Origin: Escherichia coli
GTDB lineage: Bacteria > Pseudomonadota > Gammaproteobacteria > Enterobacterales > Enterobacteriaceae
Reading direction: 5' to 3' (one strand)
Assembly: GCF_044324875.1 (NCBI RefSeq)
Contig: NZ_CP172185.1
Length of the DNA stretch: 64,000 nucleotides
This document shows positions 28,901 through 31,900 of the stretch, piece by piece (position 1 is the first letter of the stretch; each line of letters begins with the position of its first letter). The position numbers are program-made.

Positions 28901-31900
28901 TAAAATCAGTTTTACTCTGTTTAATTCACGGTTGCTTTTCATATAAACGGTTAGTAAAAAACGGAAGAATTATTTTCTTCTTAATATTTAATGTGTCACT
29001 GGCGCTTCTGGCATACCATGAGTATTCAGGTCGTGAATCATTTCATCCAGAAGGAGTTCAAGCCCTTCGCGCCCCATAGCAGAGAGAATGAAACCATTAT
29101 CAGGATCTGCGATGAGCATTTTTTGATAGAGAAACAGAACTCGCCCCATGCCTTCAGTTTCGCCATATTTTTCAATAAATCCCCATTCGACATGGTTTTG
29201 CAGGGCAATGCGAAGTGGTCCTGGGTATATACTTATGCAACCATGTTTCCCCTTGTAAATAACTGCGCGATCTGTCGTCCCGTTATCGTTAGGGATATCA
29301 ATAGTGCCGTTCTTGTCTTCCTCTTCACTGATAAACTTCATCACATACAGCCAGCGCCACTGAGCAACCTTCAGATCGACTGAAAATCTTCCCAGCAATC
29401 CGGCATCATCAGCTTCGGCAAGACATTGCATGATTCTTAAACCGTGCCAGTATGGATTATCGAATTCGCCATCATTAAGCCGCTGTACGGCCTGAATATA
29501 ATTAATGGTTGTATTACCAATTTTTATGCCATGTGGCGTTACTTCTGGTCGGAACTCTGAATGATTCATAATATTTGCTCCTTTGCTGGTGGAATAATCG
29601 TGTAGCCAGCTCTTTTTGCCATCCACAGAAATGTATCCATGCAGCCAACGAATTCATTATCCAGCAGATGTTTTGAGTAAATTACTTCACCATTTTCAAT
29701 GGTTAGCAACACTCTTACTTTTTTATGTGTTATGTTTTGTTGTTTTTCTTCCATTGACTTATCTCCCATATGCTTTGCGCAAATACAGGTTGGCTATATG
29801 AAGATAAGAATCTCCATGTTGTGCAATGAGGCAGGCAGTTTTATACGATGCCTTATGTTTCAGGAAAGTCATAACATAATCTCCTGCGAATAAAGGTTGC
29901 AACAATCCCCGGCGATAAAACCGTAATAAACATTCAGGGAATATTTATTGTTATTGCGCTAATTCTTTTTCGGCAGCAGATTTTGCATATTCACATGCAA
30001 AATTCAGAATTTCGCTGCCAAGTGTTTTTGTTTCGTGATTACTGGACATATGTAATACCTGTGTTGCATGCAATAAATGATAAACATTTACCGCAAATGA
30101 GTCCGGCTCCAGACAAATGCCTTCATAATCATCTTGTTGTGAGGTTGTTTCTGTCATTGCTCCTGAAGTGCATGCGAGCCTGTTTTTGACAATTCTCTTT
30201 CCTCTAATCACTATATCGGCAACATCTATTGCCTTTACAACCTCCGGGAGAAGTTCCGGGTTTGTATAATCAAAGTCATCAACATGGAGAACAGTTATGT
30301 TTTCGAACTTTTTCATGGCTTCCTCAGCTGACTTATATGTTCTGCTATATAGCGAGTCTCAGAAGTGTTTTCATATTGAGACTGTTTCCGCAATGATTGA
30401 TAAAAATGTTCGCATGTACCTTGAGGGGCGAAGCGGCGATTATGTCACCATTGGTATTGGTTCTTCCGTAGAAGAGCTTCGCGAGATAAGGAGCAAACTT
30501 GTTGAGATGCGTCATGGTGTTGCTGCTCCTCACTTTTTGGTTGCTCCGGAGGAGTAACCTCGCCAGTTAACAGCCACATCGGATCACAGCCAAGAACATT
30601 AGCCAGAGGGATAATCTGGCTTGCCAGAGGCTCCCTCTTGCCACTTTCCCACTGGATGATAATTTCTTCATCGAGATTGAGCAGCCTGGCGAGTTCGGCG
30701 GTTGTTAAGCCGCAGGCTTCGCGTTGGGTGTCAATAGAGCGATATTTTTTGTTTCCAGAAGGTAACAGAACACGTTTTATCTGTTGGATTTTTTCTATTG
30801 CAACTTCAATGAGTATGTTGCGGTTTCTTTCTGATGCAGACTCCATGCTTTCATGAAGTAGTGATTCTGCTTGTTCGATAAGAATCAGTTGTAAAGAAGA
30901 CATAAGAAAACCTCGTAACCAACATTTCGAAATCTAGGTTACGAGTGAGTAATGTAGGTGTCAAGTGTAATTGATAATTTTTTGTTGATTAAATTTGCAT
31001 ACGCATCTCAACGACAACACCAAGAATTTCACAATCGCCATTGATAGGGATCAGTGGATAGCGTGGGTTTAGTGGTTTTAAGAAACATTGTCCTGCGTCT
31101 TCAATGTACTGTTTGAGGGTTGCTTCACCGGAATTTTTGAGTCTAGCGACAACATATTTTCCTGAAAAAACTTCTTTGTCAGGGTTTACAAGAATGTTCA
31201 TGCCTTCAAAGATTGAGAACTCCCCATTCTGTGACGTCATTGAGTCACCTTTTACCTCCAGCCAGAATCCGTTATCTCCTGCATATATATCGCTACCGAT
31301 CCAATCTTCTGGATAAGGTATGTAATCTTCGCAGTTCCAAGGGCCGGCGCTCACCCATGTTAATTTTGGGTATCTGTAACGCGTTGGAGAAGCTGGTTTG
31401 GGGTTTCGAACGTTTTGAATACTATCTGTAGGTGAAGGTTCGCTACCATCAAGGAGCCATTTAGGTGAGCATTTTAATGCATCTGCGATCCTGAATAGGT
31501 TTGACGATCTTGTGTCTTGTGAGTCTCCTAACTCTATTTTGCTGATTGTTACACGTGAGACACCCGTCAATTTTGCCAGGTCATCTTGTGACATGCCTAG
31601 CTGAACTCTACGCATTAACAATCTCTGTCCAAAACTATCGTGTTCCATCTTTTCTCTCCGTTGTCGAAATGATTTTTTCGAAACAAATATATCAAAAAAT
31701 ATTGAAATCTAGGTTTCGCAAAACTAAGATTGTTCGAAACAAACGTGTCGAGGTCGATATGGATTTGTATGAAATTCTAAAAAACATATTTGGTTCGAAT
31801 GTTGAGATCGGTCGCCATTTTCCCCGAAAGGGAAGGGCTAGAACTGGACAGGCTGTAGGAAAGTGGAAAAAACAAGGGGTACCGGAGGATGTAGCGATTC

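What the first reader, a model, noticed from the sequence alone, without database searches (positions are those of the whole stretch)
30904..31758. Shared operator-like motif on both sides of cI
The 14-mer tcgaaatctaggtt occurs both between the HTH gene and cI and between cI and cro, together with several ttcgaaac-type half-sites. This fits OL and OR operators recognised by the same repressor and defines this prophage's immunity specificity.
Basis: seen in the sequence. Interest (0 to 1): 0.3.

Follow-up and report, generated by a model that had tools for sequence, protein, structure and literature searches.

The report
Prophage repressor operators flanking cI
The repeated motif on both sides of the prophage repressor gene is part of a set of six 18-bp symmetric repressor-binding sites sitting on the early promoters: an ordinary lambda-type genetic switch, but with a DNA specificity that I could not find described.

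Summary
The exact 14-mer occurs once (30927-30940). The second copy (31702-31715) differs at one base, so the shared exact word is the 12-mer GAAATCTAGGTT.

The motif is not itself the unit. It is 14 bp of an 18-bp dyad with consensus TCGAAA-CCTAGG-TTTCGA. Six such dyads lie in the 195 bp flanking cI:
- two overlap the leftward promoter pL;
- two overlap the rightward promoter pR;
- two overlap a predicted extended -10 promoter for cI.

A weight matrix built only from sites in relatives places its six best hits in the 64-kb window exactly on these sites. The same layout, with fixed 32- and 24-bp centre spacings, recurs in nine non-redundant relatives from Escherichia, Providencia, Proteus and uncultivated viral contigs (CI 52-96% identical). 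In them the half-sites are conserved and the flanking DNA has diverged.

The CI protein has a P22 C2-like N-terminal domain and a lambda CI-like autocleavage domain. More distant CI types carry different motifs at the same positions.

The OL/OR operator reading is supported by computation. Binding itself is untested. This is a new member of a known kind, of low interest.

The parts
30927..30944 (.). It covers the -10 of pL.
   Evidence: 1 mismatch to TCGAAA-N6-TTTCGA. Best hit of the relatives-only weight matrix in the window, 23.5 bits. The equivalent site is present over the pL -10 in all nine relatives.
30913..30930 (.). OL2 operator TCGTAACCAACATTTCGA. It overlaps OL1 by the 4 bp TCGA and covers the predicted pL start and 5' leader. 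Its outer 2 bp touch the Shine-Dalgarno sequence (GAGG) of the HTH gene.
   Evidence: 1 mismatch; 20.0 bits. Conserved in the Escherichia-type relatives L002, L006 and L007, with variable central 6 bp. Weak in Proteus (L014) and absent in Providencia (L012, L013). Together with OL1 it forms the 34-bp palindrome 30912-30945 (I2).
30936..30964 (-). Predicted pL promoter on the minus strand: TTGACA (30964-30959), 17-nt spacer, TAACCT (30941-30936). The start is expected near 30929.
   Evidence: Read from the sequence. The TTGAC and TAAyCT elements hold their register upstream of the HTH-gene homologue in the relatives; the distance from -35 to OL1 is one base longer in L014 and L032. It is not listed by the promoter scan, because TAACCT matches only 3 of 6 positions of TATAAT.
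30989..31648 (-). cI repressor gene, 219 aa.
   Evidence: HTH_3 (E 1.5e-14) and Peptidase_S24 (E 4.8e-23). The C-terminal domain matches lambda CI structure 3bdn at E 7e-27, with the Ala-Gly site (VSAG), the GDSM serine and the lysine all aligned. The N-terminal domain aligns without gaps to P22 C2 (1adr, 2r1j) at E 1e-8.
31664..31681 (.). OR-D operator TCGAAATGATTTTTTCGA, over the predicted pRM start and early leader.
   Evidence: 0 mismatches to the dyad; 14.6 bits. Conserved only in the closest group (L001, L002) and degenerate in L006, L007 and Providencia.
31678..31695 (.). OR-C operator TCGAAACAAATATATCAA, over the -10 of the predicted cI promoter.
   Evidence: 2 mismatches; 16.5 bits. 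The equivalent site scores 12.6-15.9 bits in every relative although it was not used to build the matrix. Caveat: it coincides with the conserved promoter element, so its conservation is not independent evidence.
31686..31694 (-). Predicted extended -10 of the cI maintenance promoter pRM: TGATATATT on the minus strand.
   Evidence: TTTGATATATT is invariant in 8 of 9 non-redundant relatives; L002 has TTTGCTATATT. The promoter assignment is an inference. No transcription start data are available.
31702..31719 (.). It covers the -35 and spacer of pR.
   Evidence: 2 mismatches; 19.6 bits. Present in all relatives at a fixed 24 bp (centre to centre) from OR-C and 32 bp from OR-A.
31702..31730 (+). 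pR promoter: TTGAAA, 17-nt spacer, TAAGAT.
   Evidence: The only sigma-70-like site found in 30400-32300. The -35 (TTGAAA or TTGTAA) and a TAnnAT -10 are kept in the relatives.
31734..31751 (.). OR-A operator TCGAAACAAACGTGTCGA, starting 4 bp after the pR -10 and covering the predicted pR start.
   Evidence: 1 mismatch; 15.4 bits. Its promoter-proximal half-site (TTTCG in cI orientation, CGAAA on the window + strand) is invariant in all nine relatives.
31759..31968 (+). Cro-position gene, 69 aa, first gene of the rightward operon.
   Evidence: phrog_4749, function unknown. No Pfam, NCBIfam or PDB sequence match. Orthologues sit at the same position in all relatives and in phiP27.
30445..30903 (-). 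First gene of the leftward operon: a 152-aa HTH_3 protein.
   Evidence: HTH_3 E 3.4e-9. phrog_4739, and phrog_4836 'CII-like regulator'. The OL sites travel with this gene's promoter: in Proteus L014 two other genes separate it from cI.

Best explanation
The shared motif belongs to the operator set of a lambdoid immunity region.

The prophage CI repressor has a P22 C2-like helix-turn-helix domain and a lambda CI / LexA-like self-cleaving domain. It most likely binds as a dimer to 18-bp dyads with consensus TCGAAA-CCTAGG-TTTCGA. The best-conserved positions are G3, A5, A6 and their mirror images, giving a core of GAAA-N6-TTTC.

- OL1 and OL2 cover the -10 and the start of the leftward promoter pL.
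- OR-B and OR-A cover the -35 and the start of the rightward promoter pR.
- OR-C and OR-D cover the -10 and the start of the predicted cI promoter.

Occupancy of OL1, OR-B and OR-A would therefore silence both early operons in the lysogen. Occupancy of OR-C and OR-D at higher repressor levels would limit cI transcription. RecA-stimulated self-cleavage would lift repression.

Shown here: the sites, their statistics, their positions on consensus promoter elements, their conservation, and the protein homologies. Inferred: that CI is the binding protein, the transcription starts, the order of occupancy, and any activation of the cI promoter.
For: (1) Concentration. With up to 2 mismatches, TCGAAA-N6-TTTCGA has 7 matches in 64 kb, 6 of them in the 195 bp flanking cI.

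(2) Cross-validation. A weight matrix built from 18 sites in relatives only ranks the six window sites as its top six of about 64,000 positions (14.6-23.5 bits). Shuffles of the window give 0.45 hits of 14 bits or more. Shuffles of the two intergenic regions give 0.019, and 0 of 2000 reach six.

(3) De novo search. Among all 256 four-base words at 13 spacings, GAAA-N6-TTTC is the most frequent dyad in ten OL/OR regions of five loci. All 7 copies found in 23.6 kb of locus sequence lie inside those regions.

(4) Promoter overlap.

(5) Conservation. OR-A, OR-B and OR-C keep 32- and 24-bp centre spacings in nine non-redundant loci from Escherichia, Providencia, Proteus and IMG/VR contigs, with CI 52-96% identical. 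The majority-base fraction is 0.90 in the half-site hexamers, 0.81 in the centres and 0.65 outside. In L006 and L007 the OL half-sites are kept while the central 6 bp differ.

(6) Search from the DNA side. GTAACCTAGRTTTCG has 24 hits in IMG/VR. Ten lie next to a CI homologue, always in the TTGACA-17-TAACCT context.

(7) The near-identity of the OL and OR copies recurs in distant relatives. In L040 (CI 52%), GTAACCTAGGTTTC occurs on both sides of cI.

(8) Specificity tracks the CI type. CIs at about 40% identity, with helix GVNRVTVTGWESG, have TGTAGGAT..CCTACA-like repeats at the same positions and no matrix hit. phiP27-type CI (50%) has sites in the same 18-bp frame but with TTGATA-like half-sites.

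(9) The CI N-terminal domain is homologous to P22 C2, whose operators are also 18-bp dyads with conserved outer parts and an uncontacted centre (PMC5175364).

(10) The DNA-binding domain of the neighbouring 152-aa HTH protein is nearly identical in phiP27-type regions, which have other operators. That protein is therefore not the specificity partner.
Against: No binding, footprint or transcription start data exist.

The sites in the relatives were picked by eye using the model derived from the window, so the cross-validation is not fully blind.

OR-C coincides with the conserved promoter element TTTGATATATT and may be conserved for that reason alone.

The pairs OL1/OL2 and OR-C/OR-D overlap by 4 bp, with centres 14 bp apart. 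Two dimers probably cannot occupy both members at once. OL2 and OR-D are not conserved outside the Escherichia-type group.

OR-B is centred about 31 bp upstream of the predicted cI start. That is not the roughly -42 position from which lambda CI activates pRM (from my own knowledge), so positive autoregulation cannot be assumed.

The cro-position protein is more similar to that of phiP27 (64%) than to those of Providencia and Proteus phages that share this operator type (58-60%). The classical rule that Cro and CI share operators is therefore not evident here.
Confidence: 0.8

Rival explanations
1. The OL palindrome (30912-30945) works mainly as RNA. In transcripts reading through from cI it would form a hairpin followed by GUUUUCUU. 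That hairpin would terminate the cI transcript and/or hide the ribosome-binding site of the HTH gene. The similarity to the OR copy would then be incidental.
For: The minus-strand RNA folds into a 9-bp stem of -14.5 kcal/mol, z = -2.96, followed by a U-rich run. No other terminator lies between the cI stop and pL in the window group. Comparable stems are predicted in L006 and L007.
Against: The U-run is missing in L006 and L007 (GGAATTGATT, GGAATCAACC). No hairpin is predicted in Providencia L012 (z = 0.10), which has a separate canonical terminator after cI. The central 6-bp segments are not kept complementary: 2 of 6 in L006. A stem follows automatically from two overlapping dyads. This reading does not explain the four OR sites, or OL1 over the pL -10 in all relatives.
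Confidence: 0.1
2. The sites are operators, but they are bound by another protein rather than CI: the cro-position protein, the 152-aa HTH protein, or a host factor.
For: All three phage genes co-occur with the motif in every relative, so co-occurrence alone cannot separate them. In classical lambdoid phages Cro binds the same sites as CI (from my own knowledge).
Against: The HTH domain of the 152-aa protein is nearly identical in phiP27-type regions, which have different sites. The cro-position protein does not track operator type and has no recognisable DNA-binding family. CI is the only one of the three with a P22 C2 / 434-type domain matching an 18-bp dyad. The consensus matches no host regulator site known to me.
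Confidence: 0.07
3. The resemblance between the two copies is chance, or reflects shared AT-rich promoter composition, with no dedicated binding site.
For: Only a 12-mer is shared exactly. The regions are AT-rich, and 0.5% of shuffles give a shared word that long. Each copy overlaps a promoter hexamer.
Against: The two copies overlap different promoter elements: the -10 at pL and the -35 at pR. Six dyads cluster here, against 0.019 expected. The pair is conserved across genera while the surrounding DNA diverges.
Confidence: 0.03

Closest known systems
Phage P22 C2 repressor and its OL/OR operators
   Same: The CI N-terminal domain aligns without gaps to P22 C2 through the helix-turn-helix: GVSRVTISKIELG against GVSNVAISQWERS (E 1e-8). 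The valine that P22 packs against thymine methyls is kept. P22 operators are also 18-bp dyads with conserved outer half-sites one helical turn apart and an uncontacted variable centre, and there are six natural sites (PMC5175364).
   Different: The P22 consensus is ATTTAAGATATCTTAAAT, whereas here it is TCGAAACCTAGGTTTCGA. The P22-like C2 proteins (phages 21, L, ST64T) are only about 44% identical to this CI. Here two operator pairs overlap by 4 bp. The first leftward gene is an HTH protein rather than an N-type antiterminator (that P22 has one is from my own knowledge).
Phage lambda CI with OR1-3 / OL1-3
   Same: The C-terminal domain is homologous (3bdn, E 7e-27), with the Ala-Gly cleavage site and the Ser/Lys dyad aligned. 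cI and the first rightward gene are divergent around a roughly 110-bp control region. A second operator cluster lies at the leftward promoter. The best OL and OR sites are near-identical, as for lambda OL1 and OR1 (from my own knowledge).
   Different: Lambda operators are 17 bp with an unrelated sequence and 23-24 bp spacing, and the N-terminal domain differs in detail (from my own knowledge). Here the spacings are 32, 24 and 14 bp. The cI promoter looks like an extended -10 with a leader. The position of OR-B does not match that of lambda OR2 for activation.
Immunity region of Stx phage phiP27 and its E. coli prophage relatives (closest sequenced phage)
   Same: The gene order is the same: HTH gene, cI, cro-position gene. 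CI is 50.5% identical, the cro-position protein 64% identical, and the HTH-gene C-terminal domain about 85-92% identical in DNA. Candidate sites fall in the same 18-bp frame at OL and OR.
   Different: The recognition helix is GVTRVAISKAEQG and the half-sites are TTGATA- or TGGTAA-like. The matrix scores only 8-13.6 bits there, against 14.6-23.5 here. The two are predicted to be heteroimmune. I found no operator study of phiP27.
Phage 434 repressor operators (ACAA-N6-TTGT)
   Same: The N-terminal domain also matches 434 repressor and 434 Cro (E 1e-6 to 4e-8). The conserved core here, GAAA-N6-TTTC, has the same 4-N6-4 geometry (the 434 operator form is from my own knowledge).
   Different: The half-site sequence differs. 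Conserved positions here extend to 18 bp.

Membership tests
Lambdoid immunity region (CI repressor with OL/OR operators) | Repressor with an N-terminal helix-turn-helix and a C-terminal LexA/S24 self-cleavage domain carrying an Ala-Gly site and a Ser/Lys dyad | tested here: met
   Pfam HTH_3 and Peptidase_S24. Alignment to lambda CI 3bdn with AG, GDSM and K aligned.
Lambdoid immunity region (CI repressor with OL/OR operators) | Divergent cI and first rightward gene around a short control region with back-to-back promoters | tested here: met
   110-bp region 31649-31758. pR is TTGAAA-17-TAAGAT. A conserved extended -10 (TGATATATT) faces cI. The starts are not mapped.
Lambdoid immunity region (CI repressor with OL/OR operators) | Three or more related dyad-symmetric operators in OR overlapping pR and the cI promoter | tested here: met
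   OR-A, OR-B and OR-C (plus OR-D). The spacing is conserved in nine loci.
Lambdoid immunity region (CI repressor with OL/OR operators) | A second cluster of the same operators at the leftward early promoter | tested here: met
   OL1 and OL2 over TTGACA-17-TAACCT. The sites follow the promoter, not the cI 3' end, in L014.
Lambdoid immunity region (CI repressor with OL/OR operators) | CI physically binds the operators and represses pL and pR | not testable with these tools
   Needs EMSA or footprinting and reporter assays.
Lambdoid immunity region (CI repressor with OL/OR operators) | A Cro protein that binds the same operators | tested here: inconclusive
   A 69-aa gene sits at the cro position. 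It has no family or PDB match. The AF2 model has pLDDT 64.5 with four helices, and Foldseek found nothing. The protein does not track operator type.
P22 C2 / 434-type repressor-operator recognition | Homologous five-helix N-terminal domain | tested here: met
   1adr, 2r1j and 3jxb at E about 1e-8; 434 Cro and 434 repressor at E 4e-8 to 1e-6.
P22 C2 / 434-type repressor-operator recognition | 14-18-bp dyad with conserved outer half-sites one helical turn apart and a variable centre | tested here: met
   The information content of the matrix peaks at positions 3, 5, 6 and 13, 14, 16. The centres vary in L006 and L007. The P22 geometry is taken from PMC5175364.
P22 C2 / 434-type repressor-operator recognition | Same operator sequence as P22 (ATTTAAG..CTTAAAT) or 434 (ACAA..TTGT), i.e. 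the same immunity | tested here: not met
   The consensus here is TCGAAACCTAGGTTTCGA, which is a different specificity.
Rho-independent terminator (for the OL palindrome) | Stable GC-containing stem followed by a U-run, conserved among relatives | tested here: not met
   A stem and a U-rich run are present in the window group only. The U-run is absent in L006 and L007, and no stem is predicted in L012. The terminator scan does not list it.

The most novel reading that the evidence does not exclude
The 34-bp OL palindrome may do two jobs in the Escherichia-type phages. As DNA it offers two mutually exclusive, overlapping repressor sites, OL1 and OL2, 14 bp apart. As RNA it forms a hairpin only in transcripts that read through from cI. 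That hairpin would stop those transcripts or hide the ribosome-binding site of the HTH gene. Transcripts starting at pL begin inside the palindrome, lack its first arm and would be translated. The HTH protein would then be made only after induction, even though no separate terminator follows cI.
Probability: 0.15. Interest if true: 0.4.

Novelty: new member of a known kind. Interest (0 to 1): 0.2.

Why it matters
The result defines the immunity specificity of a small prophage group. The group comprises 7 of 5426 complete E. coli genomes at 89% identity, plus relatives in Providencia, Proteus and viral contigs. No sequenced phage in the collection has a CI more than 50.5% identical.

It gives a concrete operator consensus, site map and promoter assignments that can be tested directly by footprinting. 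These can also be used to predict homo- and hetero-immunity among these prophages, including relatives of the Stx phage phiP27.

It adds one more natural specificity variant of the P22 C2-type domain. That could be useful for studying how a few helix changes retarget 18-bp operators (TCGAAA-type here, TTGATA-type in phiP27).

It does not change how lysogeny switches are understood.

Tried and rejected
- Near-identity DNA search of 30400-32300 against sequenced phages. Only the flanks matched and nothing covered cI or the operators.
- Terminator reading of the OL palindrome. Rejected as the main function because the U-run and the stem are not conserved.
- Reading the 14-mer itself, or the palindrome centred on TTTCGAAA, as the unit. 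Replaced by the 6-N6-6 dyad after comparison with L006 and L007.
- The 152-aa HTH protein as the operator partner. Rejected because its HTH domain is shared with phiP27-type regions.
- Identifying the cro-position protein. Pfam, NCBIfam and the PDB sequence search gave nothing. PHROGs gave only a family of unknown function. The AlphaFold model from 8 sequences was of low confidence (pLDDT 64.5) and the Foldseek search of the PDB gave no meaningful match.
- Exact 4-mer dyad search in phiP27 and in the 40%-identity CI group. It found nothing because their sites are imperfect. The matrix scan was more informative.
- Rfam on 29500-33000 at E up to 1. No family matched.
- Literature search for the motif strings. 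Only unrelated primer sequences turned up. A search for phiP27 operator work found no operator study.
- Extra matrix or dyad hits at 54839 (inside the 3' end of an ORF), 41303 and 32964 (inside the HNH endonuclease ORF). Treated as chance because their number matches the shuffle expectation.
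Full report
**What is in the sequence**

The finding spans cI and its two flanking intergenic regions.
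- A 152-aa HTH_3 gene lies at 30445-30903 (-).
- cI lies at 30989-31648 (-). It encodes 219 aa with HTH_3 and Peptidase_S24 domains.
- A 69-aa gene lies at 31759-31968 (+), transcribed divergently from cI.

The exact 14-mer TCGAAATCTAGGTT occurs only once, at 30927-30940. The copy to the right of cI (31702-31715) is TTGAAATCTAGGTT, or 13/14. The shared exact word is therefore 12 nt. The similarity extends to 23 nt at 83% identity.

This is more than chance:
- 0 of 100 window shuffles give three matches at up to 2 mismatches.
- Only 23 of 5000 dinucleotide shuffles of the two intergenic regions share a word of 12 nt or more.
- TCGAAAY words are at chance level across the window, but 5 of the 20 copies lie in these 195 bp.

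**The unit is an 18-bp dyad, not the 14-mer**

The left region contains a 34-bp palindrome, 30912-30945, with 15 of 17 positions complementary. The arrangement became clear from relatives at 76-77% CI identity (L006, L007).

There the hexamers TCGTAA / TTTCGA / TCGAAA / TTACGA are kept. The six bases between them differ: CCTAGA, TCTTTA or CCTTCA, and TGTTGG, CGCAGG or CGTAGG. This gives a 6-N6-6 dyad, TCGAAA-N6-TTTCGA.

With up to 2 mismatches it has 7 matches in the 64-kb window, and 6 of them flank cI:
- OL2, 30913-30930
- OL1, 30927-30944
- OR-D, 31664-31681
- OR-C, 31678-31695
- OR-B, 31702-31719
- OR-A, 31734-31751

An unbiased count of all 4-mer dyads at gaps of 0-12 nt was run on ten OL/OR regions from five loci. 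GAAA-N6-TTTC came first, and all 7 copies found in 23.6 kb lay inside those regions.

**Cross-validation**

I built a symmetric weight matrix from 18 sites read in relatives only (L006, L007, L012, L013, L014). Its consensus is TCGAAACCTAGGTTTCGA. Information content is highest at G3, A5, A6 and their mirror positions.

Its six best scores in the window are exactly the six sites (23.5, 20.0, 19.6, 16.5, 15.4 and 14.6 bits).

Shuffled windows give 0.45 hits of 14 bits or more. Shuffles of the two intergenic regions give 0.019, and none of 2000 reaches six.

Caveat: I chose the sites in the relatives by eye with the model already in mind.

**Position on promoters**

pR is the only sigma-70-like site reported in 30400-32300: TTGAAA (31702), 17 nt, TAAGAT (31730). 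OR-B covers its -35 and spacer. OR-A begins 4 bp after its -10 and covers the expected start.

On the minus strand, upstream of the HTH gene, TTGACA (30964-30959), 17 nt, TAACCT (30941-30936) forms a leftward promoter. OL1 covers the -10. OL2 covers the expected start and the leader, up to the Shine-Dalgarno sequence. This promoter is my reading; its weak -10 fell below the scan threshold.

Facing cI, TGATATATT (31694-31686, minus strand) looks like an extended -10. OR-C covers it, and OR-D covers the expected start.

The transcription starts are inferred, not mapped.

**Conservation in homologous immunity regions**

*Relatives.* They came from IMG/VR, from GTDB genomes (Providencia alcalifaciens and P. 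heimbachae at 68-69% CI identity, Proteus at 54%), and from E. coli genomes (7 of 5426 at 89% DNA identity). A search from the DNA side with GTAACCTAGRTTTCG gave 24 IMG/VR hits. Ten lie beside a CI homologue, always in the TTGACA-17-TAACCT context. They include two new relatives at 62% and 52% CI identity.

*OR.* In all nine non-redundant loci the order is OR-A, then OR-B 32 bp away, then OR-C 24 bp away (centre to centre). The majority-base fraction is 0.90 in the half-site hexamers, 0.81 in the centres and 0.65 outside them.

*OL.* OL1 sits over the pL -10 in every locus. In Proteus L014 two unrelated genes separate cI from the leftward promoter, and the OL sites stay with the promoter.

*OL/OR pairing.* The near-identity of one OL site and one OR site recurs. 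In L040 (CI 52%), GTAACCTAGGTTTC occurs on both sides of cI.

*Not universal.* OL2 and OR-D are confined to the Escherichia-type group. Most other relatives instead have a third OL site 44-45 bp upstream of OL1.

**Which protein binds**

CI is the best candidate.

Its N-terminal domain aligns without gaps to P22 C2 (1adr, 2r1j; E 1e-8) and to 434 Cro and repressor. P22 operators are 18-bp dyads, ATTTAAGATATCTTAAAT, with conserved outer half-sites and an uncontacted centre (PMC5175364). That is the geometry seen here.

Its C-terminal domain matches lambda CI (3bdn, E 7e-27), with the Ala-Gly site and the Ser/Lys residues aligned. SOS-dependent induction is therefore expected.

All relatives with these sites keep the helix GVSRV(T/A)ISKIELG. 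CIs at about 40% identity, with helix GVNRVTVTGWESG, carry TGTAGGAT..CCTACA-like repeats at the same positions and give no matrix hit.

phiP27-type CI is the closest CI in a sequenced phage, at 50.5% identity, with helix GVTRVAISKAEQG. Its sites fall in the same 18-bp frame but have TTGATA-like half-sites and score only 8-13.6 bits.

The 152-aa HTH protein is not the partner. Its HTH domain is nearly identical in phiP27-type regions.

The cro-position protein stays uncharacterised:
- It belongs to phrog_4749, function unknown.
- It has no Pfam, NCBIfam or PDB sequence match.
- Its AlphaFold model is of low confidence and the fold search found nothing.
- It is more similar to the phiP27 protein (64%) than to those of the Providencia and Proteus phages that share this operator type (58-60%).

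**Most likely mechanism**

In the lysogen, CI dimers on OL1 and on OR-B and OR-A block RNA polymerase at pL and pR. At higher CI levels, occupancy of OR-C and OR-D limits cI transcription. RecA-stimulated cleavage relieves repression.

Steps shown: the sites, their enrichment, the promoter overlap, the conservation and the protein homologies.

Steps inferred: binding by CI, the order of occupancy, cooperativity or looping between OL and OR (775 bp apart), and any activation of the cI promoter. OR-B is centred about 31 bp upstream of the predicted cI start, unlike lambda OR2.

**Rival readings**

The OL palindrome as RNA forms a 9-bp stem (-14.5 kcal/mol), followed by a U-rich run in the window group. 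No other terminator follows cI there.

Against a primary terminator role:
- The U-run is absent in L006 and L007.
- No stem is predicted in Providencia, which has its own terminator.
- The central segments are not kept complementary.

A secondary role in the Escherichia-type group is not excluded.

No Rfam family matches the region. Chance and promoter composition are excluded by the clustering and by conservation across genera.

**Comparison and novelty**

This is a standard lambdoid immunity region. It combines a P22 C2-type DNA-binding domain and operator geometry with a lambda-type cleavage domain.

The specificity (TCGAAA-CCTAGG-TTTCGA) is not represented among sequenced phages in the collection; the best CI match is 50.5% identical. 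I found no paper containing the motif and no operator study of phiP27.

The overlapping site pairs 14 bp apart, and the cro-position protein that does not track operator type, are the only unusual details.

Noticed in passing
window 30445-30903, junction near 30730: There is a mosaic junction inside the 152-aa HTH gene. Its 3' two-thirds (the HTH domain and tail) are 91-92% identical to more than 300 E. coli prophages that carry a phiP27-type cI. The 5' third and everything to its right are specific to this immunity type.
   Followed up: partly
window 31759-31968: The cro-position protein (phrog_4749, function unknown) has no recognisable DNA-binding family. It is 64% identical to phiP27 P27p12, but only 58-60% identical to the orthologues in Providencia and Proteus phages that share this operator type. 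It therefore does not covary with operator specificity as a classical Cro would.
   Followed up: partly
window 30912-30945 and 31664-31695: Two operator pairs overlap by the 4 bp TCGA, with centres 14 bp apart. Two dimers are unlikely to occupy both members of a pair at once. The purpose of the second register is unexplained.
   Followed up: partly
window 32522-33142: An ORF for a homing-type endonuclease (NUMOD4 plus HNH_3 domains) lies between the cII-position gene (31958-32281) and the replication helicase gene (33133-34791). The E. coli relative L001 has a different, shorter gene at that place.
   Followed up: no
L014 3458-4458 (Proteus sp. FME41): Two genes (176 and 154 aa) are inserted between cI and the OL/pL region. 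This is the position held by rexAB in lambda. They may be a lysogen-expressed accessory cassette.
   Followed up: no
window 39412-39565: Adjacent tRNA-Met (CAT) and tRNA-Lys (TTT) genes lie about 8 kb to the right of the immunity region; whether this stretch belongs to the prophage was not checked.
   Followed up: no
window 1-2500 and 61000-64000: The left end of the window is Escherichia chromosome (mglC, mglA, preA; best identity 98.1% to E. coli genomes). The right end encodes lambda-like tail proteins (gpL, gpJ), so the prophage runs off the window.
   Followed up: partly
window 30297-30557 (+): An 86-aa ORF runs antisense across the 3' end of the HTH gene. It has no Pfam match, and its reality was not assessed.
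   Followed up: no
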